Assembly: GCA_046563655.1 (NCBI GenBank)
Contig: CM102283.1
Coordinates: 10,043,868 to 10,063,867, forward strand
Length of the DNA: 20,000 bases
DNA from: Yuukianura sp. NJ FZ-2021
Taxonomy: Eukaryota
Reading direction: 5' to 3'
Shown in pieces: positions 172 to 20,000 of this stretch (position 1 is the stretch's first letter; each line of letters begins with the position of its first letter). A program made the position numbers and the translations under genes. The notes under the pieces are model-generated. The model was not told the DNA's origin. It did no database searches and saw only the letters and a program-made list of their open reading frames with translations.

Positions 172-3100
172 TCAGGTAGACACAACGGAATCAACAATAC
201 TTGCGGCAGTTTTGCCTGTGAGAAGAGAGTGGCATGATTTGAACTGGGCTTTCCAGAAGTGGAGACAGGAGTCCAGGGACTGGAAACACAAGTTCCTCAA
301 CCAAATCCCCTCAGCAGTCACACCCACCACCTCCTGAAACACTTTGTTCTCAAAGGGCAAGTAGGACAGGATGAACTGACCTGGTTTCCGTCTCGACGCA
401 GTGAGGACGTAGTGCGTTCTGTTCGGCTTCTTGTCCTTGACTCCCTGCAAGTACTTGGAGGCCTCTTGCAGGCTCTCGTAGTCCTCCCTCTTGAAATATT
501 TAAACCGAATCATCTCCCGCGCAAAGGCCGCCTGTGGATTCACGAACCGAACAATGATTTCATCCAAGTCCTCAAAGTCCACGTTCCCAATGGACAGCAC
601 AGACCCCAGCTCAGACTCACTCCGTTTGTCCTTCTCCACGATGTTGAGGTGCTGGACCACTCCAGGAGCCACGTTCCAACTCAACGTCAACACATCGAAC
701 CCCTACAACAATCAAAGTCAACTCAAACTATTCAAAAATGTCACAGTACCCCAACCACACTCCAAATTGAACAATACAAAGCACAATTTAACTAAACACT
801 ATAAAACATTCAAAAATGAATTTAGAAAAAACTTCTAAGCTTTTTCTAAACGTCGTTCCTTTGATTAATTTGAAATATTTCAAACTTTGTTCGTCATATT
901 GTTCAACCAATTTGGAATCTCTTGGGGTGGAATGAGATTTTTAGAAAAAAGTTAGTTTTTTGGTTGAAATGGACTGAAGTTGGATGGTTACCTTGGTGGA
1001 TGGTCGGAAGATGACGTCGCCCTGGTCCATGTCTCTCAGCATCTCTTCTGCCTCTGTGAAAGTGATGTTCTTGTAGGAGGGATGAGTGACATTTCGACGG
1101 ACGAAGCCAGGGAGGGGTTTGGCCACTTTCCTCAACTGCTTCATTCTTTCACTCTCCGCCTCTTCATCATAGTAGGGGTCCTTGATCGGCCTGGAACCAA
1201 AACCAAAGTGTGAACATTTGAACTTGTGCCATTTTGTAATTGAGATGTTACATGTATTCGTGATTGTGGAGATCGGCTGTGGTGGCGCTGGCTTTGAGGA
1301 AGAACTTGGTCGTGTCCACTGAGAGGATTCTCACTTGGATTGGAAGACGGAGAGACACGAGTCTGAGAATGTCTTGTGCCCTGGGCACTTTGTCACCCAG
1401 TTTGTCGAGGGGGATGATGCCAGTGATCCCATTGCCCAAACTAATGTGAACAGCATAAATCTCTCCTGGACAAGCGTCCAGGTCAAAGTGTTCCCACAAC
1501 TACAAACCAACAGTCAGTTAGCACATAATAAAGATAGGAGAGCAGTATTTGGACTTACACTTTCCACTTGTGGAAGATGTTGCTCACAGAAGGGGCAAAT
1601 GATGTGTCCAGTGGCAGGGTCAGTGAAGGGGTCAACCTCATTCCAGTCTTCCAAAGTAGGCTTCCGTCGTTTCACATCTAAAAACACAAATCCAAAGTTG
1701 GTTCATTGTTTTATTTTGTATTTTTGAGTGGGTAGTGTTACCGTTCATGTAGGCAGTGACCAATTTCCCCTCTCGAACAGTTTCCTCCCTTTCCTTGGTC
1801 AAAATGTAGAAGATCTGAGTAGGGTCAGGAACTTGGAATGGAGCTCTAACTTCATGGTAGGGATGAGCTAGTTCTGTGACGATGCTGTTGAGGAGGAGAG
1901 TCAAGTCTCCGTAGCCCTGTCTGCGCAGAGTGTCAATGTACTTGGTCAAATCCAGTGCCACGAGTCTGTCCAGACACTCTGGCTCCACCATCACTCGCTC
2001 CATGATGTCACAGTCACCCACAAAAGTTGACTCCTCCTCTGATGAAAGGGCGGCTCGAGCCACTGCCAGCGCAAATCCATAGTGCTGCGGATGAATTCTC
2101 GTCTGGTCTCTGGGGTCAACGATCGCACTGCAACACAACCACTATTAATCAACAACTCCAATTTTACTTTCACAATCTTACTCTTCCGGCAAAGTGTCTC
2201 TGAACCGGATGAATCCAGCAGCATTTTTGTAGACGCAAGGTCCGATTCCAAACTTGGTGGCCAAATCCGCTCTGTTTTCCACGATTCTAAACTCCTCCTT
2301 CTTTACTTTCTGAAAAAACAAAAAAAGAATTTAATTAGCCAAAGTGAAGTTGAGTAGACTAGAAAGTAAATGTAATTTGGAAGTACGCGGAGGAGAGCAG
2401 TGGCTTTGTGAAATCCAAATCCAGCGACGAACTGGAGGAGATGAGAGCGATGGGGGTGGGCGACTGCGTCGTTGATGTCCACTCCCGTCTCACAAGCACG
2501 GTTGACCATCTCCACCTCCAGGCATCGCCACAACTCCTCCTTCGCAAGGTGGCGCTGGAAGGAAGACATTGTTAGTCCAAATGATTGAGTGGATGGTTGT
2601 AAAAAGCATACCTGGTACTTGTCCAAGTGGAGACACAGAATGTCTTGGTCTCTGTTAAAAAGCTGAGCCACTTCGTGGAGAGGATCCTGGACATAACGCC
2701 CCAGAGACACCGCTTGGCGCAAGGAATCACCAGCACAAGGAAACTCCTCCTGCAAAGCTCAAATTGAAGAGAGAGCAAGAGGAGAATGGTAGTTTTACCT
2801 TGGCAGTGGCTGTGCGGGAGTACACTTTGGCCACTTCGTTGTCCAGGATGAGGACTGGAAGGACTTTGAAGTTGAGGTGAGTGTCGGGGAAGGAGAACAG
2901 AAGTTGTCTCACTTCATCCTCCAAAGTGAGAGCCCCACGACACTCCCCACCTATGACGACGACATGCGGCTTCGTCTCCTCCACCACTTGTCTCAGTCTC
3001 CCTCTGTCCTCCTCCTAAAAGTCAAAGTGCAATTCAAAATTAAAACAAAATTGTTTAATTCAAAAGTAGAAAAGTTGAGGATTTGGAAAAAGTAAAAAAG

Positions 3101-5911
3101 AAATACTTGGATTTGGTCCACGTCTTCCAAGGTTCCTCTGAATCTCCTCGTCAAAAGGTTTGTCAGAGTGATTCGTTGTTGCACAAGTCCGTTCCTGTCC
3201 AGCACGACGCAGTCCACGGGTGAATTGTGTTCATATGCAAGTGCCATCACACGAACTCCGTCTGAAGTGTCCCAGTCACCCTCCTCATTGTCCCTCTCGT
3301 ACTTGACAGTGTAAGGGGCACTCTGATATTTACAACAACATTCAGTTATTCCACTTCAATTTCAAACTATTCCACAACTTACCTTTACGAGGTCATAGAT
3401 TTTGTCACAGCACCGCTCAGAAATTCGTTTCATCGCTTTCTTGAGAAGCTGATGACGAACCTCTGCTCTCAAATCGGGGTACAAGAACTTGGTGAACGCA
3501 AGGTCAACAATCTTCTCACGAATTCCGTTCCACTCAGCCGCAACTGCGTCCTCCGAATCCTAAGGAAAAACAAACTTGACTTTTGTTCTAATTAAGAGAC
3601 ATAAGAGTTTAGTTACGGATTTGAAGAAGGTCTTGGCTTGATCCACGAGACTTTGAGCTGCGTCTCCTCTAGCCGGAATCCAAGCTCCAATTTCCATCTT
3701 GATGAGTCCCTCCTTCTCCGCTTGTGTCAGTTCCAAAAACTCTATTCCGTCCATTTCCCCAACTGGCTTCTCCTTTAAAAACTTTAGCCTAAAGGAAAAC
3801 AAAAAAACATTAAGGAACAGGAATACTACGGCGGAATTGAATAACTGAAAAGACTTACGAGAAGAGCGGATGGTTTTCGTCAATAGCAGAGAGCCCTCGG
3901 CGGGTAGGACAAACGGAAATTGTGGCCTTCTCCAGGAAAACTTTCCTCACAGTCCTTCGAACTCTGAAATCTTTTGCAAAGTTGATTGCGAGCATATGCT
4001 TGCCAGCTAATGAAACAGTCTCCGCATCCTTCCCGCATCTACAACACAAATGAGGGGATTTTAGAATTTCATTCAGTTAGCACTCTCACAAATATGAACT
4101 TACGCTGCTGCAAAAGTGTTTAAAACGTCGGCCAAAGAGACTTCCGTTTGGATGACAGAGTGGAGGAGTTTGTTGGATTCCAAGTTGTGGCCAAACTCCT
4201 CGGCAGAGAGGCCAAAGAGGGGCAGCATTCTGTGGATGCCGAGTCGGATGCAGAGTCTGTACTGGCCGCCCGTGCTCCTCTTCCAACCACTGCTCAAGGG
4301 CGCAGGTTCCACTTCCATCTCCACTTCCCTCTTCTTCATCGCCTCCCTCATCTGCCCCACTTGATCCCCATAGTAAGTGGAAAACATGCCACCAAGGTCA
4401 TCCAGCTCCACCACCGAAGTAGACCCACCAACATCCTCCACATCTTCATCCGTTATCTTCCTAATTTCATTGTCAAACAAAAACTGTTCTCCCAACCCCT
4501 CCTGATACGCCTTCATGTTGACAAAGAGCTGGAGAAGACGCTGTTGTCGCTGGTGCATTCGACAGTACTCTTCATCCAGACTGTAGATCGTCCACAGGTC
4601 ATACACACTCAGCTCCGGCTTCACCACCTCCTTTCGGTAAAAGTAAATGTAAGGCACTTCACACTTCTCATCTCGAATCAACCTCACAATCTTCTGGATC
4701 TTGCTCAGGTACGTCGTCTTCCTCCGCTTCAACTCACTCCAGTCTCTTCCTGGCCCTCCACTCACAATGGACACATCCTCATCCCAATCTTCTGCGTTCG
4801 TCACTCCAGCATCCAGGGCCTCCTTCAACACAGACGGAGCAAAGCCCTGTTTGAAGATCCACATCACTTCTTCATTCAACTCGGGCCCAGTAGGATGGAG
4901 GGGAAAACGTCGGAGTTGATAGCGCTCAGGAACGTCAGTGGAACGAATTGTGGCAGCCTCGTCACTAATCCCTGCCTCTTCCAGAAACACAGGCTCAAAC
5001 GAAGTCCCTTTACGCTTTCTGAAATTAGGACAAAATAGTTGAAACATAAAAGGAATTAAATTACAAGTGGATGTGCATACCTCCTTTGACTTTTAGTTGT
5101 GGATCTTCTCTCTTCAGGATCTCCTTCATCCGAACTAATGTCCTCTTCATAGTCAGAGCGGCTGTCGTCAGAGGAACGTTCGTTGTCGCTGTCAATGGTA
5201 CACAAGTGCCCGTAGTCAAAGTCACCCCCAAAGATTTCCTTCGCTTCTCTCACAGTTTCGTCGCTGAATTGAGGTGCAGCCGTAATTTGGCGGAGGATGG
5301 GTTGGTCGTTGTCATCTACAATAAAATTATCATCCGAATCTTCTGACTCTTCCTCCACTGACACTCGTCGCTCTCCGAGTTTCGGTCGTTTGGAACATGG
5401 CTTAGACGCAGGTTTCTGGTTCACAAAGGTCAAATGTGAGTCTCAATTAATAGATGGTAACTTGTTGAGAAAATGGTTGACTAGCCTCAGATTGTTCCTG
5501 ACTGCTCTCCTCCGAGTCTGAGTCCACAATCCGTTTCACCCGTTTGTATCGGCGCTGGACACGAATAAATGATCAACTTAAATGAAAGAGATACAAGGAA
5601 TGAATGATTTGTGACTTTGGGCTTACGCGTATCTTGACTCCGAGGTTTTCTTCCAGCAGGTCGTAGTCGTCATCCTCCAGTCGATCGTCGTCGTAATCCT
5701 CATCCTCGTCCTCACGTTGTTCCTGTTGCTCAATGTGTTTTGGTGAGGTTTGAGCGGGGACTTGGATATGGATTTTGGATGGAGACAAGACTGATGTGTC
5801 TCCTTCATCTATAGTGACGACGTCGATTATGCTGGATTCGGAATCACTCCCTCCGTCTCCTTCCGACGTGGGAAGGCGAAGATCCAGAGGTTGGTCAACA
5901 GGAAATGACAT
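172..5911 (-). CDS. SPT6: Transcription elongation factor / histone chaperone SPT6, about 17 exons, roughly 1,490 aa, diverged
   Basis: Spliced translation gives SPT6 hallmarks in order: DDRLEDDDYDLLEENLGVK, DNFIVDD, EAKEIFGGDFDY, IRSTDVPERYQLR, EVPYIYFYRKE, AVSLGRYVQDPL, GVDINDAVAHP, TRIHPQHY, ICPFCEQ, an S1-like region, and tandem SH2 (VIFRPSTK, FEDLDEIIVRFVNP, PGQFILSYLP). Intron phases were followed by hand and stay in frame to TGA at 172-174. One donor near 5485 is ambiguous. Confidence 0.95.
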
Positions 5912-6894
5912 TGAATCGGAGTTGCTCTTAACCACGGCTACAACGTACACAAAGTGGAGAATTAGTTGAATACTTACACTAAAGGGGGCCAGTAGTGGAA
6001 TTGATGTTAATTACCTGATTTACTGCCACAAGTTACATACAACGATTGATCCTCTTTCCTCTGCCAACTGAAGATTACGAAAACTGAAAAGAAAAGGAGA
6101 TGAGTGGTTTACGGAATGCAATGATAGAAAGAGCATTCCAAGGCCAAAATACCCGCCGGAAAAAAAAACTAAACAAAAGAGACGGGTCAGTCCAGTTGGC
6201 GCCCAAAGAGCACCGTCACTTTTTTAACTCAAACAAAAAGTACAACTCATAAGAACAATCACTAATTAACTTTCCTTTACTTTCAAGCCAGACGATCTTG
6301 CCAGTAGTGTAATTAATCCACTCAGCAGTGTCACTCTTTCTTTTTTCTTCTTCTCAAATTCCCTTTCCTTTTCAACGCTTTACTCTCCGTATCCGGCGGG
6401 CGGGAACTTCAAAATTTTGAATTTTCTTCTTGTACATAGTTGCTCATTTTCAGAGCGGCACCCTGAACGAAACGGTCTTTGCCAAAAATAATAACCAACC
6501 GCTCATTTCCGCTTCGTTTCCACAAGATTAAGTGTCAAAATCTCGTTGGATTTGATTTTATCTGAACATAAGAATGAGCTAATTATGAGTGACTTTAATT
6601 TTACTACTCTGAATAATTACAATTACTTCACTGTTGTGTTCTGAAGTCGGGGATGCGTCCGGTACCGAGAGCGGTCCTGGTTTTATCGTTTCGAGTGGGT
6701 TGCCGCTTTTGTGCTTAACAGTTGTGCTTCTCTCTTCCCAAATTTTTAATTTTGTAAAACAAGTAAGGATTAAATGTCAAAGTTTTCAATGGAAAACAGA
6801 AAGTAATTGAGTGAAAACGTTGATTTGGGGAATGTTCCAAGAATGGTATGGTTGTTGGTGTGGGTCAGTTTAGGAAGTGCGTAAGTGTGGTCTA
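5912..6894. promoter_or_regulatory. Divergent (head-to-head) intergenic/promoter region with E2F-like sites
   Basis: About 1 kb between two outward-facing ATGs. Contains TTGGCGCCCAAA (6196-6207) and GGCGGGCGGGAACTTCAAAATTTTGAA (6395-6421). Confidence 0.5.
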
Positions 6895-8971
6895 ATGGCC
6901 GTAAGTTCCAAGAGCGGGACAAGGACGTTGAGCTGGAGTGACGAGATTGGGTTGTTGCCCCTCTTCATTACGCTTCTCCTTCCGGTCGTGATTGGGGTCA
7001 TTGTGCTTGTGAAATGCGTGTGGAATCAGTGCTGCCTTCGAAAGACAACTGCCAAGTAAGGGTCTACTGAGTAACGCTACTTGAACACATCACTCACTCT
7101 AACTCTAATTCCAGGTCATACACGGTCAAGCCCACTCTCAAGTCTTGGAGAGGGACAGAAACACAGGAAAACACTCGTGCAGCAACGGAAGGAAAGGATG
7201 CTGAGCCAAGCACAAGCGGAAGTAGTCGTGTTCCACCTACAGCCCAACACATTGTGCACAATTCCTTGGACTTGCCTCCAGCGGAAGAAGAGGATCGCCC
7301 TATTCCCCCTCGGAGGAGTGGAAGTGGGCAGTGGAGACGAATGGTGGGAGCTCAAGGGACTCAAAACAGTACAAATGTAGGGACTTCATTATGGAAATGC
7401 ATGGGACACTGTTCCTAACCAATGTTTTCACTTGCAGGATAACCAAGTGAACTTCTCGGGTGATTCTCAAGATTCTCGCGGGTACACGGAGTTCAGTGGA
7501 CGAGGACCCCAGCAGAACTCCAGACAGGGTGACCCACACTACGTGACTGTCTCAGACGACTCGGGTAACAACCATTTACTCTCCCTCAACAACGTTCTCA
7601 TTTGACATTGACTTGATCATTGTACAGAGGAAATGTATGCTGCCATAGAAGGAGAGGGGAACTACATGCGGATTCCTGGAGATGACTCTAGGCACTGGCA
7701 AGGTAACTACACAATTTCCACTTCCCTAAACACGAAAATAATACTCGTCATTTTTGATTCCAAAAGTAGAGAGACGGGAAGGAAACTCTCCTCTGCCACC
7801 AGTCCCTCCACCCATTTCACCAGCATTCCTCACATCAGCCGCACAACTAGCTCAGCCACCATCCCTTCCTCCGTCTCTGGACCCCATCGTCCCACCAATC
7901 TATGCACAAGTGACGAAAACCAAAAAGTCAGGTCCCACCAAACATTGTGATGTGTCCAGTACTACGGCCTCCACTTCTAGTCAAATCCCATCAACCACAA
8001 CTACGCAATCACCCTGTCCTCAACCTTCGTCTTCGTCTCACAAGCGACACAATCACACTCAAGTCGTGTCGGATGGTGCAGAAGGGTGTACAGAGATTCG
8101 ACGGTGGTCAAAGGCTGATATTAATTACTCTGAATTCGAAGTGATTCGAGAGGCCCCCTTTGCTTCCAAACCAACAACGTCCACTGGAGTGGACCTTCTG
8201 GATGAAGACAACTACAACATTGTGGCCGAAGTGAGAACGACAGCACGCCTTCCTTCTCGTCGGCGGCCTGAGAGCGTCCCAATCGCTTCTTGCAGCAGAA
8301 CACTCCCGTATCCAACGACCAGCAACAGCATTCTCCACCATCCCTATGCCGAAATTTCCAATTCACCCCCTCTCCCTCCTCTGGACACGACTGTCCATTC
8401 CAGAACTGAAGATGGACACTACTCCACGGTGGAGCGGAGTGGAGAGTGTTGGAAGGATCCATCCCACCATCCCTACACAGAACTGACCAACAGAACTCCC
8501 ACCGACCACTACCAACAAATCGGAGAGAGAGGGGGGAAGCGGAACAACGTCTACCAGAAGATTAGGCGCAGAGGAGCGGAGGAGTCTGAGGAGGATGAAG
8601 AGGACGAAATGTATGAGAAGGTCAAGGGCCCCCCTCTGCCCACTCATGGGAATCCAAGTGCTCTCAAACACGGCTATGAAAAGATCAAGCGGAAAGGAGA
8701 GAGTGAGGATGGTTCCAGTTCCTTCCCACCCGCCCTTCCTCCGGAGTCTGATGAAGACGGGAGTTTGTACGAACAGGTCAAGTACACACCGCCCTATGAA
8801 CGACTCCAGGAGTCTGCCGAGGACTTGGACAAGAGGAAGGAGTCGAGTGGCAAGAGTCCATGCGTAGCAGAGGCAGTGCATGGTCCTACTCCGCTCCTCC
8901 ACGACAATGTATCCAATCTCTACGCTCGTGTGGACCTCACCAAAAAGAAACGAAACACGATTCACCCTTAA
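6895..8971 (+). CDS. Single-pass transmembrane, tyrosine-motif-rich adaptor-like protein, 5 exons, about 600 aa
   Basis: Exons about 6895-7055, 7115-7343, 7438-7564, 7628-7702 and 7767-8971 join in frame through GT-AG introns. Short N-terminus, hydrophobic IGLLPLFITLLLPVVIGVIVLV, then KCVWNQCC, then a Pro/Ser-rich tail in which 17 of 20 Tyr are YxxPhi. Confidence 0.75.
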
Positions 8972-9490
8972 ACTCCGCATGCGTATTTGAATGTTAAGTT
9001 AATAGAATAGTTGCAAGAGATTATGTGTAAGTTAGTAACGCTAACCTCTCATCCTCTACAGTCTAATTAATTACCTAACTTAGGTTTCATTGTATTCCTC
9101 TTTTTGTACTGCGACAATTGAGAAGGGAATTAAAAGAAGAATGATTGGGAGAGCTAACATGGGATTTTATTAATTTTGTAAACTGGATCGTGATGAGTAT
9201 AGATGAGTGTGTGATCCTAATCCAGTCCGAGTACTTTCCTCCGAACAGCTGACAGCCTGTGTGACACAATGGAATCTCTTCCTACTAGGTAACACAACAT
9301 TCATAGCAACAACCTAACCAATTGGTAGTAAACCATTCGGTCGTTATAAGAAAGGGTGCGGTGGTTACACTTTGTGTGTACAAAAGGTATTACATTCATT
9401 TATTGCAACCTCGTAGAACCTTCTGGAAGGTGTCTCCTCTGGCGAGGATTTGTTCAAAGTTTTGGTTGTGTTTTGCGGAGCGTGGACAAG

Positions 9491-10000: not shown

Positions 10001-11207
10001 ATGGCGCCCATCACGTCGTTCGTTGACTACCTGCAGCGATTGATGGATCAAGACAGCGACCGATTGAGTAGGCAGTGGATTACGAACAATCGTAGGAAGA
10101 ACACGGCAGGTGTATGGATGGTGTTCCAAATTCTGCTACTGGATGGTGAAGAGACTGGTTACATAATTTGTAGCCAGTGTAATCGCCTGCATCGACGTAA
10201 AGACGGGGTTGAGATATTGACGGAACACAAGTGTGTGCAAGAGGCTCTTCTTGCTGCTTCCCAGAATACTACGAAGCTCCTTGAAAAGACGCTACTGGAG
10301 GGAACAATTCAGATATTGGACACGACGAATCAGTCCCTTCCAGTTCAGGCCGACTTCCGAGCACTGGAAGATGAATTGAAGAAGGCGATGGAAGAAGTCA
10401 ACAAAAGTCGAGCCAGAGAAGACAAACTCAAGGATGAATTGGAAATTTTGGAAGCAGTACAGCACAGCATGGTGCAAGAGATTACTCAACTGAAAGTTGA
10501 AAACACAACACTGAAAGAGAGAATCGAAGCCATGGAAGCTAAGGAGCTGCAAAATGCAATGGTGTCACAGTCGAAGAACCATCAGGAGGTGTCGACACAG
10601 ACACAGTCAGATCCAATTGAAGGCCCAGAACTGTTCACGAACGCTTTTCCTAACCCGAACAATGTAACCAAGCAGCCGTTGACGGTATGTTCGAAATTTA
10701 ACAACTTTAACTTCTAGAATTACGAAAATTGAAAAAAAAATGGAATTTAGAAACGAAAAAGTTAAAACTGATTTTGACGTTGATGAATTTTTGTGTTTAG
10801 GGCCGAACTGGAAATAATCTGGCTTCTGTCGTGGGCAATACTAGTCGAGCTCCAACCGCTCTCAGTGTCAACGCAACCGCTCCAAACTCGCAGCTCAACA
10901 ATCTGACAAAGGAAACAGTTACGGTATGTTCGAAATTCAACAACTTTAACTTCTAGAATTACGAAAATTGAAAAAAAAATGGAATTCAGAAACGAAAACG
11001 TTAAAACTGATTTTGACGTTGATGAATTTTTGTGTTTAGGGCCGAACTGGAAATAATCTGGCGTCTGTCGTGGGCAATACTAGTCGAGCTCCATTGTCTC
11101 CGTCCACAAACAATGTCAACCGTGGCATACAGCGCCAACCAAGCACTCGGGCACCACAAACCAAGGCTCCTCCAAAGTATTTGCTCCCTAGACTTCTAAA
11201 GAAATGA
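10001..11207 (+). CDS. BED-type zinc finger + coiled-coil protein, 3 exons, 324 aa
   Basis: Exons 10001-10684, 10801-10923 and 11040-11207, both introns phase 0. N-terminal VWMVF..DGEETGYIICSQC..G..ILTEHKC fits the BED pattern (W..F, CxxC, HxC). It is followed by a heptad-rich Glu/Lys/Leu helix and VSTQTQ. Confidence 0.75.
10682..11093 (+). repeat. Intragenic tandem duplication, period 239 bp (116-nt intron plus exon 5' part)
   Basis: Introns 10685-10800 and 10924-11039 are both 116 nt and differ at about 3 positions. Both following exons start GRTGNNLASVVGNTSRAP. Confidence 0.95.
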
Positions 11208-11221
11208 GATTGGGACGTTTT

Positions 11222-11337
11222 TAATAAGTCGTAACTAATAAGCCGTAACTGATAAGTCGTAACTAATAAGTCGTAACTAATAAGTCGTAACTAATAAGTC
11301 GTAACTAATAAGTCGTAACTAATAAGTCGTACTAATA
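11222..11337. repeat. 14-bp minisatellite (TAATAAGTCGTAAC), about 8 copies
   Basis: Read directly. Two units carry single substitutions and the last has a 1-bp deletion. Confidence 0.97.
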
Positions 11338-11680
11338 GCAAGTATGCTGCATTAATGTTTGTACAGAATCATTTTCCGATTCTGATGGGATCTACACTGG
11401 TCTTGACTTTTCCCCCGCCATTTTGATATTCTGTTCACCTCTGAATCCTACATGAATGACTACATTTACCTTGCATTTGCTAACAATTAATTACTCATTG
11501 GATTTTTTCCGTCCTTCAAGGAAAAGAAACTGATTCGACTTTTATAATTTTTTGATTCCGTACGTAATTTGAACAATGACTTAACTCAAGTTGAAAATAA
11601 ATCACTCGTGACATTGGAGTGGCGTTGTAAGGAGAAGTGATAAAACACTTCTAAAATTTTTATTATTGAATTGATAGAAG

Positions 11681-13275
11681 ATGGATTTGTCGGCGGCTTT
11701 GACTAGAGAAGGAATTGGTGCGGAATTGGGATTAGGAGTTGCTGCCACCGCTGCACTTTTGACCAAAACACAGCCACCTCAGGTAGTGCCCAATTGTATT
11801 GACAAGTATTGAATGTGTTGAATACTGGATCAGCTGTTTTGTTTTGTGTCACTTAGGTATGTCAGCTACCGTCGGAAAATGTGTCCTCAACGCTTCAAAT
11901 GGATTCATTGGCTCAGGAGATTCAATCCTTGGACCAAGGGCAACTGGAACAATCGTGGACACAGGAATTTACATCTGCACAGGACAATCAAGCAGCACAG
12001 GTTAGTTCAATTCCCAATTGGAACTTCCAGGGTCCTCTAAAAAGTAATTTCGGTTTAGAGGCATGGAGTCGAGACGTGGACCAGGCATAGACAGAATCAG
12101 TTGGACAACAATGGACAGAGGAGTTGGAGCCAAGGAGATTGACAATGGAATTGCCTAGTGCTCCTGGTCCACAGTGGAGAAGGAATTGAGTGGCCAGGAA
12201 TCCCAGTTGGCTAGTCGATGGGCCAACGAATTCCAGTTTCAATTTAGTCCTGGAACGAGTAACTGGGTCCAGGAATTCACTATGCAAAATGAGCAGGAAC
12301 AGTTTCTGCACAAACTGCAAAGTGAATGGGATCAACAACTGGAAGAAACACACTCCTGGCTAACAACGACAAATCCAGCATTGAACCAGGCAACTACTCA
12401 ATCCATCACTAATCACACCAACTAAGTACTTCTCTTGCTTCTTAATTTTACTTCTTTTGAATTGTAGGAATACAAGTTTAGTGGAGAGAATGGATTTATG
12501 TCAAGTAAGGAGCCACTGGCTGAAGGGAGAGCCCTGTTGGAGCAAGGGAACCTTCCGAGTGCAGTTGTTGCCTTTGAAGCGGCTGTCCAGCGGAATCCAG
12601 AGGACTTGGAAGGTTGGGTGGAGCTGGGGAAGACACAGGCACAGAACGAACAAGACCCCAACGCCATTCCAGCCCTCAACCACGCACTCAGCATTCAGCA
12701 CAACAATTTAGCACCTCTCCTGGCCCTCGCCGCTTCTCTCACCAATGAAGCCTTCCAGCTCCAGGCAGCACACACACTCAAGGGAATACAAATCAAAATA
12801 TAGTAACTATGAGTGAATTCAAATGTTAACATTGTTTGTTTGCAGAATTGGCTAATTGGAAACCCCAAATACTCTCACCTCCTCCCTTCATCTGGATCCC
12901 AACCAACGGACTCCAGGATTTCCAGTGTCGTCTCCAAGTAAGCAACAACAATTTCACTCTCAAATGGATTTACTTAAGAATTTCCTTTAACTTAGAGAGG
13001 AGTTAAGGGCTATCCAAGAATCCTTCCTTGAAGCTGCTCGTCTCAACCCCAATCTGGATCTGGATCCAGACGTACAGTGTGGCCTTGGGATTTTGTTTAA
13101 CCTTGGAACCGACTACGAAAAGGCTCCTGTTTTTGAGCTGCTCTCAGCCTCCGCCCAAATGTAAGGAAAAACAACGTTTAATCCTAGTCACAAAATGTAT
13201 ATTCCAATGTACAATATTTTGTTGTAGGATTCTCTGCTGTGGAATCGGTTGGGCGCTACGCTGGCGAATGGTGGT
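11681..13275 (+). pseudogene. PEX5: Peroxisomal targeting signal 1 receptor PEX5, disrupted and 3'-truncated
   Basis: WxxxF/L repeats (WTQEF, WTEEL, WANEF, WVQEF) and TPRs: [65 protein letters not shown]. Lesions: TAG 12088-12090, frameshift near 12177, GG instead of GT donor at 12783, small deletion near 13126, TGA 13134-13136. The last TPRs are absent and the 5' end is uncertain. Confidence 0.9.
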
Positions 13276-14171
13276 CTGAGAGCCCTCCATGTGACGCTTC
13301 ATCCAATGCAAAACGCCAAGTTGAGAACTCTGTCCTTGGAAAAGCCCTGGAACTCTACCCCTCCAGCCCCCCTCTCCTCCTCCTCTACATGAATGTCGAA
13401 GTACTTTAACTTTTTAACTTTGGTTAGGTTCAGTTGACTCATTTTGTTTGTTTTTGCAGAGTGAGTGCAGTGTGGTGGGGAAACTGTGGCGGTCCCCCGT
13501 CAAGACAGTCAAGGAACGGAATGCGAGTGACTTTTGCACTCTGGATTGGACTCCCGTCTTCATGGCCTACACTTTGTCCAGACAAATGGAGGAGATTGAG
13601 GAGGAGTCGGCAGTAGCCCTGCATGAATTTGGAATTGGTAAGGATGGGAATGTTTTTGGAAGGAATGTTCAAGTACTCATTGGTTTTTGTTGCAGGGGGA
13701 CCAGCAGTGCCTCCGGATACAATTTTCTACAAAGTGGATGGGATTCTGAGTGGTGCTGAGAAGAATGTGTTGAGTGGTCACTGCCCCTTGATCTGGAGAC
13801 TTCATCTCAAGCATTTGGCGATGAGGGCGAAGGAGGGGAAGGACAGGAGGAGAGCAGAGGGACTTTTGTATGAAGCCATTCGACAGTGTCCCACGAGCAA
13901 GTGTCTGTACTTGGATGGAATCCTGTACTTTCCTCATCTCATGCACCAAGTGCTGGACCTCATGAGTCAAAATGAACTGCTCATCCGAATGCCACTCGAG
14001 GAACTCCATCTCCTCTCAAAGTTCAAGGGGAAGGAGGATGAGGAAGTGGCCGTTGTGGACACTTTGAAGTCCAAATCCAAGGGAAGGAAAAACCTCAAGA
14101 AAAAGAAGAAGGGAGTGACGAAAAGAGGGAGCGAAGAGGATCTCGTTCCAGTAGAAATAGTTAGTGACTAA
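13276..14171 (+). pseudogene. NRDE2: 3' fragment of nuclear RNAi/exosome regulator NRDE2
   Basis: LGKALELYP.., GHCPLIWRLHL, GLLYEAIRQCPTSKCLYLDGILYFP and QVLDLMSQNELLIRMPLEEL match the NRDE2 C-terminus. Two introns (13401-13459, 13638-13695) are retained. There is a frameshift near 13330 and most of the gene is missing. Confidence 0.85.
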
Positions 14172-14487
14172 CAAATTCGTATGTAATCCACATTACTACT
14201 ACTTTTCGGTAGCCTAGGAAACTAAATTGTACTTTTATCTTATTAATTCCAAAGCATAAATGGATAAAGGTTAGGATAACCCACAATCAATTAGTCAACA
14301 GCATTACTTCACCTAAATATGAAATACGGTAGTATTTACCTTAAAAGTAAAACTATACCTTATGCTAGCTCAGTTATAAATCATGGCAAGGTATTTAGTT
14401 GTGTAATTATGCTAAAAGCAATTAGTTGCGTAATTAAGATTAAATTGCGAATTACTTATTGCGCGATGAGTAACTAATTACTGTGAA

Positions 14488-15634
14488 TCACTCGTAGTGG
14501 TTGAGTTCACCAGCGATGTGTTCGTTGTCCTTGATCTTCCTCATGACTTTCTTCTTGGCTGGTTTTCAGAGTTTGGGATTTGATTTCTTGTTCCCTCGAC
14601 CCTCCATGAACTGAATTCCCTGTTTCTCCAAGTACTATTCCATTTTGATGTCGTCCATCCCATCAACTGCCAAACCGCGTTATAACTTCTGAAATTCCTC
14701 GTCCACCACCCGACGAGCAGTCTTGTCCTGGAAAAACAACACTTTCTTCTTGTCCTGTCTTGTGATTGTGATTATCTCAGAATCCAGTGCCTCAAAACAC
14801 GAAATTCAATTACTTTAGAATTTTATTTAAATTACGACTACTTAAATTTTCATTTTAGTAAGAGTGGACTCACTTTTAGAACTCGTTCTGCATGGGGCAC
14901 AGATTCCAGTACAGCTTCACGGAAAATTCCACTGAGGCCCTTCATGTCTTGCAGTCTGAGGAGTCTAAGCAGCGACTTCTTATCCCGACATCGCAGTGGC
15001 GGCTGGGAAATGTACTTGTCCTCTTCAGTTCGCTCGATCTTCGAATTATTCGGAAAGGCTTCCTGGATAAGCCACTAAGAGAATCACAAGTTTTAGAAAC
15101 TTCAAAAGCAAAGTACCGTCTGGATGCTACAGGTCAACTTACGGCTTTAACTTGTTGCTCACATCCAGCTGATTGGTTTCATCCAGGATTTTGTCTACTG
15201 ACAACGGAGAGTCCTCCCCTTCTTGGAACTTTCCTCTCAGATCCTTCAAAATCTTGGTCAAAATCCCAAACTTGTAGGCAGAATTGGGTCCACTCCAACT
15301 TTTAAAAGTGGGCGGAGGAGCAGAGCTAAAAACAGAAATCAATCAATTAACTAGTGAAACAACTGACTTAATCTTATGATGCACACTTCACTTACCCTGG
15401 TTTAGTTGCAATTGACCTCCTCTTCTCCTCTGGTATCTGGTTCATCCCTTCGTACCCTATTCTCCACCCTGTAAAAACAGAACCAATTAATTAACACTAT
15501 CTAAACTAAACGATTACTCTAATTCTAATCGTCCATTACTCTTATCTTCAATTACTCTAATGATTTGCTTACGTGGGTGTTTCCTTGGCTCTCTTGAGGA
15601 ACCGTTCTCTTTCTCGTCTCAGCTCTGGATCCAT
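14488..15634 (-). pseudogene. GTF2E2: General transcription factor TFIIE beta subunit, disrupted, 5 exons
   Basis: MDPELRRERERFLKRAKETP, YKFGILTKI, ILDETNQLD, RDKKSLLRLL, DKKKVLFFQDK, VDEEFQKL*R, NEHIAGEL. In-frame stops at 14680-14682 (TAA at a conserved Trp), 14635-14637 and 14566-14568. Frameshifts near 15437 and 15144. Confidence 0.93.
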
Positions 15635-15739
15635 AATTATCACTTGTGCAATACTACAAGTTAATTATTAATTAACTTTAAACGATCACTCTCACTCTTC
15701 AAGTTTAGAATGAACTCTGCTTCACTAACTTCCACTTCT

Positions 15740-15908
15740 TATTTTGTTTTGATTTTGACTTTTGTTTTTTGAAAAGAGTTGGCGCACTTTGTGTCAAGTT
15801 CAAAGTTGAGCAATGTCTAATGCTGAGATAACCATGTCAGCAGCTTCTGTTATTCTCCGAGGATTAGCTCTTCAGACGAAAGGACAAAACCAAAAGTTGT
15901 CGGAGCAG
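15740..15908 (+). repeat. Inverted repeat, left arm (partner 16962-17138)
   Basis: 15740-15780 is the exact reverse complement of 17098-17138. Colinear similarity with scattered mismatches continues to about 15908. Confidence 0.95.
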
Positions 15909-16961
15909 GACTCTTTGTGTTTTGGTTTTCTGTGCACAGAATGGACTGCGCGTGTTTCATCCTCGCTTGACAGTACAAAAATACTCAGGGCCGTGTGCTA
16001 CTAAGTTACGGCCCATCTTCCGAATAATTATTAATAAAGAATAATTATTATTATTATTAACATCATTCACTGTTAAGGACTTCAAATTACAGTTAAGCAA
16101 AATGAAATAATTACTACTAGTGTATTTCATGTCCCTTAACCACAAAAAAAAACTAATTCCAAGACAACTTCCATTTTTGCGTTTCAGCTATGGTTAAACA
16201 GTGGATTTTCTAATTTAAACCAAAACTACAAAGAAACTTTGTGAAAATAATGCAAAAACAGTAAAATTTGAAATGATGTTTAACTTTTAATTTGTTTGAA
16301 CAAGCGAAAATGGATTTCGAATAACTTTTGTTTGTGGAATTGAAAAAACGGAAACAGAAAAAAAGTGGAGTGAACTCCTGCACACTCTTCCTGTTCTCAG
16401 CAACTTTCTATGCTTTTCACACATAAAAAATTCACCTAACTTTTTCTGGCCAAGTGAAGTGATGATAGAAAATCATCATGAATGACTTTACACAAGAAAG
16501 TTCTGACCACTGTCGTTTTTCTTTCTTCACAAGAAACTTTCATACAAAAAGTACAAAGAAAGTTAGAGAAATCTAAGGATGTAGGAAAAGTGAAATTGGA
16601 AAGCTTGTTGTACTTTTATTTAGATTTGAGAAGCGAAACTGCATGGAGAAAAATTGAGTTTGGTGTACAAAAACAAAAATAAAATTGAAGTTGAGTCAAG
16701 TCCAATAGATTCGGCCGGTCCTGCGGAACTTTCTCTGTTTTTCTCCATAAAATGTTTGATTTTTGGGGGGTTTGGAGTTGGGATGGTCCCTGCATGCATT
16801 TTTTCCATTGCCACCTCACGCCCTTCACCACCCCCAACTCCAAAAGAGTAACACTGCTACTCCTTTCGGCTTCATATAAAAGGGAAGCTCCACAAATTCT
16901 CTACTGCTCTGAACTATTTATGGGAATCTCATCCTGGGTGCGGACCGAGAGAGCGAACAAG

Positions 16962-17138
16962 CTGCTTTTACAACTTTTGTTTTTGTCTTGGATTGCGCAA
17001 GTCAGGTGGAAGTAATCCTCGGAGAGCAACAGAAGCTGCTGACAGCTTATCTTAGCATTAGACACTGCGGAACTTTACACTTGAGACAAAGTGCGGGAAC
17101 TCTTTTCAAAAAACAAAAGTCAAAATCAAAACAAAATA
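16962..17138 (-). repeat. Inverted repeat, right arm (partner 15740-15908)
   Basis: Reverse complement reads TATTTTGTTTTGATTTTGACTTTTGTTTTTTGAAAAGAGTTCCCGCACTTTGTCTCAAGT..GTCTAATGCTAAGATAAGCTGTCAGCAGCTTCTGTTGCTCTCCGAGGATTA..GACAAAAACAAAAGTTGT, matching the left arm. Confidence 0.95.
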
Positions 17139-17231
17139 GAAATTAGAAGTTTAACTTCAATTTAAAGTTAAGCCTGATTGATTAAAGTTAATCATTGACT
17201 AATTCCTCAATTAAGTTTTAGTTTTTAGAAG

Positions 17232-19827
17232 ATGTCTGACAAGGAAACGAGTAGTACGGAGAACCCGAAGAGACAGCGGTTAGAAGACGACCAGTCCGAA
17301 GCAACAATCACCGCAGAAGGTCAAGTGACTGATGAAAATGTGAGTAAAGGTCAAGAGTCTTCAGACGATGAGTTCATTGGACCTCAGCCAGTCACTGAAC
17401 AGGATCCACACAAATCGGAAAAAGTCAAGCGGAAGAAAGGTCAGTCAAACAATGATAACATTTCAAAACAAATCCTAAGTGTCCGATTTTATTTTCAGTT
17501 CTTGCCTATGATAAGTTATACCTCGATAACCTTCCAGCTTCCAGATGCAGACTACTACGAAAAGAGTTTTATGCATCGAGAGCCATTGTCTCACATAGCA
17601 GTTACATAGCAAGTCAAACACATCTCAATCCCAAGTCATTCAAGGTTCAATTTTTATTAATAATTTGTGGTTTTTTTCAGAACTGACTTCCTCATTACTG
17701 CCAGTTGTGATGGTCACATCAAGTTCTGGAAAAAACAGGAATTGGGAGTACAGTTTGTCAAACACTTTTGACCTCACTTAGGAAATATCCAAGACATTTC
17801 AGTCAAGTCTACCGGGACTCAGCCTCAATTCCCAATGACAAAAGCCTCAAGGTCTTCGATGTTGTCAACTTCGGTAAGTTTCACTTTTACAACTTAGATT
17901 TCATGAAATTACTAGCATGCTAATGAAAGGTTTGTTTTGTAGATATGATCAACACGTTCAAATTGGACTTTGTACCGCAAGCATGCGAATGGATCCATCG
18001 TTCTGGAGATGCAGTTGTGCTCTGGCAGTGTATGATTTAAAGTCATTGATTTTATTACAAATTACTAGCTAATTCAATTAATACTAACCTAATTAATTAA
18101 TTTCAAATGTTTCTAACCCTGTTCTAGGTCTAATGCTGACTCCAATCTGATTTACATTTTTGACGGACACGGAGGGAAGGAACCTCTGCGCATTCAGGAT
18201 AAAATCCATAGTCTACCAGTGACTATCATCAAGTACGCTCCAAAGTTAGACGCCGTCAACTCCGGAGATGTCCAGGGAATGGTTGAGTACTGGACATGAT
18301 CCAAGACAGAATTTGCATTCCCAGCCAACCTTCACTTACGTTCCAAACTGGACACGGACTTGTTTGAATTTGTCTCCAACAAGTTGAAAGTCTGTTGCTT
18401 GGCAATTTCACCAAACGAAAAGTACTTTGCTACTCTCCTGATCGAAGAGTAAGTATCTAAATCCCTATCTTAATTATCTTATCGTAGACTTATCCTAATT
18501 ATCTTGTTATCTTAGACTTAACTTTGTGATTATCTCTCCAGGTCTGTCTGTTCCACCTTCTGACTGGGAAGTTAGTTCGAGTATTTGACGAAGACTTGCC
18601 GCAGATTCTTGAGCATCAAGCCAAGGCTCAGCTGATCCCGAACATGGAATTCGGAAGACGCATGGCTGTGGAACGGGATTCAGAAAACAACAACGTTTTA
18701 AAAGAGACGAACATGCTGTTTGCCGACAGTTCCAACTTCCTCCTCTACCCCACCGTCCTTGGCATCAAAGTGGTCAACATCGTCACCAACAAGTTGGAAC
18801 GTCTCATTGGGAACTCAGAAAACCTTCGATTCCTGCGTCTCGCTCTCTTTCAAGGGAAACCCAAGAAGAACCTTGGAGTTCCCACACTGGAGATGGAGTT
18901 CAAAATCCAGCACTGGGCTCTGTTCTTCCAGACCCAACTCTTTTCTGCACAGCCTACAAGAAGAATCGCTTCTATCTCTTCTCGAGATGGAAGCATGAGT
19001 GAACAAGGATGTGTTCAACGAAAAACCAACCAAAGAAGATATCATCTCTGCCACAGACACAGCTGGTAAGATAACATGAAGTGGACAAAGCATTTATCTC
19101 AGCTTATCCTAACTTTATCTCAGGTTTATCCTAACCTTATCTTTCTTTTTGAAGCTACTAAGAAGATTTTCGAGACTGCTGTGATGCACACGACGAAGGG
19201 TGACATTCATATCAAGCTGTTCGTGAAGGAGTGTCCCAAATCAGCTGAGAATTTTTGTGTGCATAGGTTAGACCTAACCTGCATGCGAAGAATGGGTACT
19301 ACAATGGGAACATCTTCGATCACGTCATCAACTCTAATTCATGATCCAAACAGGAGACCCTTCAGGTTCTAACTAAAAACTAAAACTAAAGTTACTGAAA
19401 CGGAATTTGACCTGTGACCTTGAACTTTTGTTTGTCGTAGGAATTGGAACTGGTGGTGGAGAGAGTATTTGGGGAGGGGAGTTCGAAGACGAGTTTCATC
19501 CAAGTTTAAGACATGATCGACCGTACACGCTGAGCATGGCCAATGCCGGTCCAAACACAAATGGATCCCAGTTCTTCATCAACATCACACCCACCGTAAA
19601 GTTATACACATCCACTTTTTTCAATTTTTCCATTTTAAACAAGCGAAGGTGACTGATTGGTTGTTTATTTTTGGCTTAGCTTTGGCTGGACAACAAGCAC
19701 ACTATCTTTGGCAGAGTGACACGCGGAATGGAGACTGTCCAGTCCATCTCCCTCGTAAGACTAACTCCAAGACAGACAAGCCCTGCGAGGCGACGACGTC
19801 TCCATCATCAACATCTCTCTCAAATAA
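17232..19827 (+). pseudogene. PPWD1: WD40-repeat cyclophilin PPWD1, full length but multiply disrupted
   Basis: [131 protein letters not shown]. Lesions: 7-bp duplication 17531-17544, stops at about 17607, 17769-17771 and 18297-18299, several small deletions, and a 20-bp insertion at 19265. Confidence 0.95.
19261..19284. other. 16-bp palindromic insertion flanked by a GCAT duplication inside a PPWD1 exon
   Basis: GCAT-AGGTTAG-AC-CTAACCT-GCAT. Removing 20 nt restores [12 protein letters not shown]. Confidence 0.85.
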
Positions 19828-20000
19828 AATGTCCAGTATTTTACACAAACTTTATTTCTGAACATCCTCATCAAAAAACGAAACACAAGAGATATGAATT
19901 AATTAATCGTTGTAGAATGGAGTGAGGTACAAAAAGTAACTAAATTAGCGTTGACGCTAAAAAGTTGATGAGTTTTGAGACACTTCCGACACCGATTTAG

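What the first reader, a model, noticed from the sequence alone, without database searches (positions are those of the whole stretch)
11681..19827. Four consecutive housekeeping genes (PEX5, NRDE2, GTF2E2, PPWD1) all decayed in place beside intact genes
Seen: all four keep their introns, so they are not retrocopies. Each has independent lesions: nonsense substitutions, indels, a dead splice donor, a TSD-flanked insertion and a large deletion. The adjacent ~4.5 kb of SPT6 coding sequence has none that I could find. Established: TFIIE-beta is a core Pol II initiation factor and PEX5 the PTS1 import receptor, both normally single-copy and required. Inference: this is a degenerating duplicate segment, such as a segmental or whole-genome duplication homeolog, a non-recombining sex/B/germline-restricted chromosome, or a decaying haplotype in an asexual lineage. 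The intact left-hand genes would be the retained or neofunctionalised members.
Basis: partly seen in the sequence, partly recalled or inferred. Interest (0 to 1): 0.75.

Follow-up and report, generated by a model that had tools for sequence, protein, structure and literature searches.

The report
Subtelomeric patchwork of dead gene copies
At the end of a springtail chromosome lies a real patchwork of broken copies of four housekeeping genes, taken from more than one chromosome and spread to other chromosome ends; this is a known kind of chromosome-end junk, though the working originals of two of the genes are missing from this genome assembly.

Summary
The lesions are real, but the genes did not decay in place. 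The window is the last 20 kb of contig C1 in a springtail-like genome. Its right half is a mosaic of segments shared with other chromosome ends. PEX5 (intact parent on C6) is cut short and fused to the last fifth of NRDE2 (intact parent on C4). GTF2E2 has five copies and PPWD1 three, all broken. They share lesions, so each died once and was then amplified; their sequences show conversion tracts. Contigs from two studies carry the PPWD1 frameshifts. No intact canonical GTF2E2 or PPWD1 is in the assembly. Most contig ends lack telomeres, and reads hold an unassembled, diverged PPWD1 copy, so a missing parent locus is likelier than true loss. The intact SPT6 is an old divergent paralog (39% identical to the canonical gene), not a retained partner. 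The scan noted similar patchworks elsewhere in this genome. Side lead: the genome also has divergent TFIIE-alpha-, TFIIE-beta- and RPB2-like genes.

The parts
172..5809 (-). Intact, divergent SPT6 paralog (5' end uncertain, up to about 5960); chromosome-specific, not part of the mosaic
   Evidence: Pfam SH2_2, HTH_44, SPT6_acidic; 633 of 1634 aligned residues identical to the C8 SPT6 model, most introns shared; no stop or frameshift; canonical gene at C8:3.84 Mb
6843..8971 (+). Open gene of no family, with a hydrophobic segment and a tyrosine-rich tail; pieces also occur near two other sites
   Evidence: No Pfam hit over cut-off; 6949-8069 matches C8:41.1-42.3 kb (95%), 8026-9198 matches C5:2.245 Mb (92%)
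9169..9286 (-).
   Evidence: Translation with a stop; at least 10 matches elsewhere, most near contig ends
9474..11804 (+). Segment shared with C2:643-645 kb; holds an unnamed ORF, a 239-bp duplication, a 14-bp tandem array (11222-11337) and PEX5 exon 1
   Evidence: 86% identity; the C2 copy carries a differently deleted PEX5
11681..13274 (+). PEX5 pseudogene, truncated in exon 7
   Evidence: 83% DNA match to C6:49.6-51.3 kb; intact 9-exon, 511-aa parent with four WxxxF motifs, whose TPR exon hits PEX5 structures
13280..14171 (+). Last 258 codons of NRDE2, fused to PEX5, one frameshift
   Evidence: 252 of 258 residues identical to the intact 7-exon, 1279-aa gene at C4:10777-15026
14488..15634 (-). 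GTF2E2 (TFIIE-beta) pseudogene, five exons, five lesions
   Evidence: Spliced alignment to P0121; human TFIIE-beta hit, E 7e-11; broken sisters on C4, C5, C7, C8
15727..17151 (.). Non-coding element with long terminal inverted repeats, many copies, mostly near contig ends
   Evidence: Arms 15727-15831 and 17047-17151, 88% complementary; full copy at C2:129.9-131.3 kb, 90%
17232..19827 (+). PPWD1 pseudogene, full length, about 13 lesions; the contig ends 173 bases later
   Evidence: sisters at C7:10.125 Mb and C8:15.262 Mb; contig end

Best explanation
A subtelomeric mosaic of duplicated (unprocessed) pseudogenes with no protein function. SHOWN: genomic pieces from at least two loci (PEX5 from C6; NRDE2 with its GTF2E2 neighbour from C4) are joined end to end at the tip of C1, and the same blocks occur at other ends. 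GTF2E2 and PPWD1 were each inactivated once and then copied, and the copies have since swapped tracts. INFERRED: the joins arose by repair of broken chromosome tips using other ends as template (terminal translocation or break-induced copying), and the blocks then spread by ectopic exchange. INFERRED: working GTF2E2 and PPWD1 genes exist but lie in unassembled DNA, probably at a chromosome end or in a gap.
For: Window = last 20 kb of C1. TTAGG arrays at 3 of 15 contig ends examined: C4 start, C7 end, C8 start. Gene-bearing DNA matches of 400 bases or more: C7 end, C8 end, C4 start, C8 start, C6 start, C5:2.24 Mb, C2:0.64 Mb; 7 of 7 point towards the nearer contig end, as the window does. Intact parents on different contigs. 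Shared lesions. dN/dS among copies 0.40-0.86 (10 GTF2E2 pairs) and 0.63-0.74 (3 PPWD1 pairs). Conversion: window and C4 share 20 of 21 polarised sites in 14460-14844, C4 and C7 share 10 of 10 in 14910-15061. PPWD1-pseudogene contigs are about 4-7 times deeper than PEX5-region contigs in X1, X2 and X3 (a rough guide only). A further PPWD1 copy is in the reads: X3 record 23 has 23 substitutions and 9 gap letters over 19676-20000, and X3 and X4 show a different last intron, whereas C7 differs by 0 substitutions and 5 gaps and C8 by 1 and 0. A 100-N gap cuts the C4 GTF2E2 copy. Both known parents lie within 52 kb of a contig end.
Against: No intact canonical GTF2E2 or PPWD1 found in the assembly, and no read shown proves one; the diverged PPWD1 contig could be an older pseudogene. 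The intact NRDE2 sits tail to tail with a dead GTF2E2, so GTF2E2 may have died at its native site. Two of the seven matches are 0.64 and 2.24 Mb from an end. One of three short GTF2E2 5' fragments (C8:15.247 Mb) is inverted. PEX5 window vs C6 has dN/dS 0.27 (dS 0.22), below the roughly 0.35 that I estimate for one fully neutral branch, so that copy may have worked for a time. Runs join 13275 to 14439, not to 13280. The window's own end has no telomere in the assembly.
Confidence: 0.82

Rival explanations
1. Same mosaic, but canonical TFIIE-beta is truly lost (unitary pseudogene, later amplified), and the divergent open TFIIE-beta-like gene on C4 does its job.
For: 5 of 5 canonical copies share one frame-breaking deletion, including the copy beside intact NRDE2. 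An open 4-exon, 264-aa paralog with matching intron positions lies at C4:15.077 Mb. Three protein or family searches found no open canonical copy.
Against: A conserved TFIIE-alpha is present at C8:3.31 Mb (57.8 bits), and a separate divergent alpha-like gene at C5:9.76 Mb could partner the divergent beta. Close relatives keep intact canonical proteins, 81-88% identical on the exon searched. 12 of 15 ends examined lack telomeres. TFIIE-beta is essential in yeast (recalled).
Confidence: 0.07
2. Decaying homeolog, divergent haplotype or introgressed segment: one block duplicated whole, worked for a time, then decayed.
For: PEX5 pairs have low dN/dS: window-C6 0.27, C2-C6 0.22, window-C2 0.06 on 43 codons only. 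NRDE2-GTF2E2 adjacency is kept in four copies.
Against: The PEX5 parent lies between POMT2-like and P5CDH-like ORFs on C6 (names recalled), not beside NRDE2. Divergence differs twenty-fold between parts. The two left-hand genes have no whole twin.
Confidence: 0.05
3. The block is partly an assembly chimera: real pseudogene segments from several ends stitched onto C1.
For: Runs of both studies show 13275 joined to 14439, and no listed piece spans the stretch. Window and C4 differ at only 3 of 600 sites in 14080-14680. The contig stops inside the repeat.
Against: The window's NRDE2 piece has its own 2-bp insertion, and 12 of the 33 variable sites in 13280-13910 are its own. The runs differ from the window at many sites, so they are probably other individuals. 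This rival changes the order of parts, not their nature.
Confidence: 0.06

Closest known systems
Human subtelomeric duplicon patchworks (PMC2323237, eight passages read; bioRxiv 10.64898/2026.07.10.737660, abstract and opening paragraphs read)
   Same: Mosaic of blocks shared among non-homologous ends, orientation kept towards the telomere, tip translocation and gene conversion, pseudogene copies beside functional members, variation between individuals, poor assembly.
   Different: Here the cargo is single-copy housekeeping genes of a compact springtail genome, every amplified copy is dead, blocks are 1-7 kb, and two parents are unlocated.
Duplicated (unprocessed) pseudogenes (general class, recalled)
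   Same: Introns kept, stops and frameshifts, near-neutral divergence among copies.
   Different: They were amplified after death and fused to pieces of unrelated genes.
Specialised polymerase machinery: plant Pol IV/V (recalled; PMC2834690 seen in a listing only) and Paramecium developmental paralogs (PMC12716044, 12 of 17 passages read). Applies to the SPT6 side lead only.
   Same: Divergent paralogs of a second-largest subunit and of transcription factors beside canonical ones.
   Different: No expression, complex or function is shown here; RPB1 was not searched.

Membership tests
Subtelomeric segmental-duplication mosaic | Lies at a chromosome end | tested here: inconclusive
   Last 20 kb of a 10-Mb contig without a telomere; the 97% sister on C7 is 60 kb from a TTAGG array, the C4 sister 9 kb
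Subtelomeric segmental-duplication mosaic | Blocks shared among ends of non-homologous chromosomes | tested here: met
   C7 end, C8 both ends, C4 start, C6 start
Subtelomeric segmental-duplication mosaic | Blocks of different origin and age joined | tested here: met
   Parents on C6 and C4; dS 0.011-0.22
Subtelomeric segmental-duplication mosaic | Orientation to the chromosome end kept | tested here: met
   7 of 7 gene-bearing matches of 400 bases or more; 2 of 3 short GTF2E2 fragments
Subtelomeric segmental-duplication mosaic | Ectopic exchange or conversion among copies | tested here: met
   Switching site patterns, 20 of 21 then 10 of 10; assembly mosaicism not excluded
Subtelomeric segmental-duplication mosaic | Structure varies between individuals | tested here: inconclusive
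   Alternative joint 13275 to 14439 in 3 of 4 runs; polymorphism or misjoin
Duplicated pseudogene | Introns kept and reading frame broken | tested here: met
   4 of 4 genes
Duplicated pseudogene | Intact parent exists | tested here: inconclusive
   Met for PEX5 and NRDE2; not found for GTF2E2 and PPWD1
Whole-genome or segmental homeolog; divergent haplotype | One collinear intact counterpart of uniform divergence | tested here: not met
Degenerate sex, B or germline-restricted chromosome | Sex- or tissue-limited depth | not testable with these tools
   Runs carry no sex or tissue labels
Degenerate sex, B or germline-restricted chromosome | Decayed copies confined to one chromosome | tested here: not met
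   Dead copies on six large contigs: C1, C2, C4, C5, C7, C8
Processed pseudogene | Introns absent | tested here: not met
Unitary pseudogene (true loss) | No functional copy in the organism | tested here: inconclusive
   None in the assembly, but ends are incomplete and a diverged PPWD1 copy is in reads

The most novel reading that the evidence does not exclude
This springtail has no working canonical TFIIE-beta. The gene died beside NRDE2, its corpse was amplified at chromosome ends, and Pol II initiation now uses a 33%-identical paralog that belongs to a set of divergent Pol II genes (RPB2-, TFIIE-alpha-, TFIIE-beta- and SPT6-like). A likelier, separate lead (my estimate about 0.4) is that this set forms a second, specialised transcription machinery beside an intact canonical one.
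Probability: 0.07. Interest if true: 0.88.

Novelty: new member of a known kind. Interest (0 to 1): 0.38.

Why it matters
As it stands, it shows human-style subtelomeric shuffling in a small hexapod genome, with dead housekeeping genes as traceable markers of the order of events. It also warns that this assembly would falsely suggest loss of TFIIE-beta and PPWD1. If canonical TFIIE-beta were really gone, it would be the replacement of a core initiation factor in an animal. The side lead, a set of divergent Pol II paralogs that includes the window's SPT6, deserves its own follow-up.

Tried and rejected
I first read a frameshift into the C4 NRDE2. Homologs read the same frame and the spliced gene is open; the lesion is in the C7 copy. 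An apparent SPT6 frameshift at 4812 is an alignment artefact inside a 330-codon open exon. Search for a same-species intact GTF2E2 in metagenome contigs: 36 loci, best 82% over the full length; the tool may omit the window's own genome. No PPWD1 or PEX5 match beside any of these 36 loci (most are short). Complex prediction of the divergent alpha-like and beta-like exons: no answer, score 0.01. No RNA holder listed. Loose ends at 18069 and 18102 in X2 lie in an AT-rich intron and were not counted. X1 record 4 and X3 record 19 (15318-15647) fit the assembled C8:15.247 Mb fragment, not an intact gene. The DNA search scored only 40 of 88 candidates, so absence rests on the protein searches. A look-up of earlier notes by sequence found nothing. 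Five paper searches (listings of 20 of 141, 20 of 72, 15 of 253, 2 of 2 and 15 of 105 papers) showed no springtail report of either feature; this is not proof of absence. PMC13194869 (passages) has no mention of subtelomeres. No supplements were read.
Full report
Setting. The window is G000:C1:10043868-10063867, and the contig ends at window base 20000. The genome has 98.7 Mb in 22 contigs. TTAGG arrays occur at 3 of 15 contig ends examined. The best named relatives are springtails: Allacma fusca and Orchesella cincta for PPWD1, Orchesella for TFIIE-beta.

Observation. All four genes keep introns and are broken. PEX5 has two stops, two frameshifts and a dead donor. GTF2E2 has three stops and two frameshifts. 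PPWD1 has 5 stops and 9 frameshifts against P0007, 13 events in all, largely reproduced with two other references. The NRDE2 piece has one frameshift. Contigs of four runs (two samples at most, two studies) were laid on 11400-20000. Long pieces from both studies cross the PPWD1 lesions without coding gaps, so these are not consensus errors. Only the best-supported rows were shown, so the other three genes are only partly checked in reads.

Anatomy. The right half is a mosaic. 9474-11804 matches C2:643-645 kb (86%). 11672-13274 matches C6:49.6-51.3 kb (83%), where PEX5 is intact: 9 exons, 511 residues, four WxxxF motifs. At 13274 the PEX5 match stops in exon 7, and at 13280 NRDE2 starts at residue 1022. 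Its parent at C4:10777-15026 is intact, 1279 residues, downstream of a RAD51C-like ORF (name recalled). So the 'large deletion' is a fusion of DNA from two contigs. 13280-20000 matches the C7 end (97%), 15734-20000 the C8 end (96%), 13280-15602 the C4 start (97%). An inverted-repeat element at 15727-17151 separates GTF2E2 and PPWD1. Of the seven gene-bearing matches of 400 bases or more, 7 point towards the nearer contig end as the window does; five lie within 70 kb of an end, two at 0.64 and 2.24 Mb. Of three short GTF2E2 fragments, one is inverted.

Order of events. All 5 GTF2E2 copies (C1, C4, C5, C7, C8) lack the same base at the end of exon 3. All 3 PPWD1 copies share 8 lesions at the same codon. 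Each gene therefore died once and was copied afterwards. Copies diverge near-neutrally: dN/dS 0.40-0.86 for 10 GTF2E2 pairs and 0.63-0.74 for 3 PPWD1 pairs (Nei-Gojobori, no transition correction). Ages differ: dS is 0.011 (PPWD1, C1-C7), 0.05-0.19 (GTF2E2) and 0.22 (PEX5 to parent). Site patterns switch along GTF2E2: window and C4 share 20 of 21 polarised sites in 14460-14844; C4 and C7 share 10 of 10 in 14910-15061. This fits conversion among ends, though assembly mosaicism could contribute. PPWD1-pseudogene contigs are deeper than PEX5-region contigs (X1 1583 vs about 230; X2 32 vs 7; X3 207 vs 43), suggesting more copies than the three assembled; the tool warns that depth is no copy number.

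Missing parents. Searches of the own genome found no open canonical GTF2E2 or PPWD1. I think the parents are unassembled. Twelve of 15 ends lack telomeres; both known parents lie within 52 kb of an end; a 100-N gap cuts the C4 GTF2E2 copy. The reads also hold a PPWD1 copy unlike any assembled one: 23 substitutions and 9 gap letters in 325 bases, and a different last intron in X3 and X4, against 0-1 substitutions for C7 and C8. Whether that copy is open is not shown. For GTF2E2 there is no such direct sign, and the intact NRDE2 adjoins a dead copy. True loss is therefore not excluded.

Results against the reading. PEX5 window vs C6 has dN/dS 0.27, somewhat low for a copy dead from birth. Three of four runs join 13275 to 14439 at about single-copy depth, skipping the NRDE2 piece, and no record shown bridges the assembled junction. 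The window's NRDE2 piece has private changes, which favours polymorphism over a misjoin, but this is unproven.

The left side. The window's SPT6 is open but is the weaker of two SPT6 genes: 633 of 1634 residues identical to the C8 gene, and 27-31% to its best database hits. It is an old paralog, unrelated to the young duplications. That these act together is inference only.

Comparison. The block works like human subtelomeric duplicon patchworks, which arise by tip translocation, keep their orientation, undergo conversion and carry pseudogenes (PMC2323237, passages; 10.64898/2026.07.10.737660, abstract and opening). Four of six features tested were met and two were inconclusive. It fails the tests for a homeolog, a single degenerate chromosome and retrocopies. 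The scan noted similar patchworks in other parts of this genome; those notes are leads, not support.

Verdict. Real, explained, a new member of a known kind. Interest 0.38, raised a little by the unlocated TFIIE-beta and by the divergent Pol II paralogs.

Noticed in passing
window 172-5809 (-); G000:C8:3841367-3849056: Two SPT6 genes; the window's is an intact paralog only 39% identical to the canonical one.
   Followed up: partly
L051 977-2068 (-), G000:C4:15.077 Mb: Open 4-exon, 264-aa TFIIE-beta-like gene lacking the usual N-terminus, about 33% identical to canonical proteins.
   Followed up: partly
L112 1276-2109 (-), G000:C5:9.76 Mb: Divergent TFIIE-alpha-like gene with winged-helix and zinc-ribbon-like parts; match weak and below the Pfam cut-off.
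   Followed up: partly
L115, G000:C3:9.51 Mb: Fourth RNA polymerase second-largest-subunit gene, nearest to RPB2. With the three genes above it may form a specialised Pol II set.
   Followed up: partly
window 19259-19281: The 20-bp insertion in PPWD1 is a small inverted repeat of telomere-like sequence with a 5-bp duplication, shared by all three copies.
   Followed up: partly
window 15429-15441, 17531-17544, 19783-19792; C7 and C8 sisters: Many lesions are 5-8-bp tandem duplications, a possible signature of end-joining repair.
   Followed up: no
L007/L002, G000:C6:49171-51301 (-): The intact PEX5 model has no N-terminal cysteine motif (recalled as typical of PEX5) and uses GC donors; another first exon may exist.
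   Followed up: no
window 10001-11196 (+): ORF with a Cys/His cluster and coiled coil, a duplicated 239-bp intron-exon unit and a 14-bp tandem array behind it; related to C2:644 kb and C3:8.63 Mb.
   Followed up: no
window 6843-8971; G000:C8:41144-42274, C5:2244735-2245880: Pieces of the window's unnamed gene are inserted among NRDE2 fragments on C8, suggesting that exchange also ran outward from this end.
   Followed up: partly
L026 8300-8900, L022 9200-9550, L032, L034: GTF2E2 fragments are nested in broken CTDNEP1-like copies at four other sites.
   Followed up: partly
window 720-970: Short inverted-repeat-like element in an SPT6 intron, with at least eight matches on C8 and C2.
   Followed up: no
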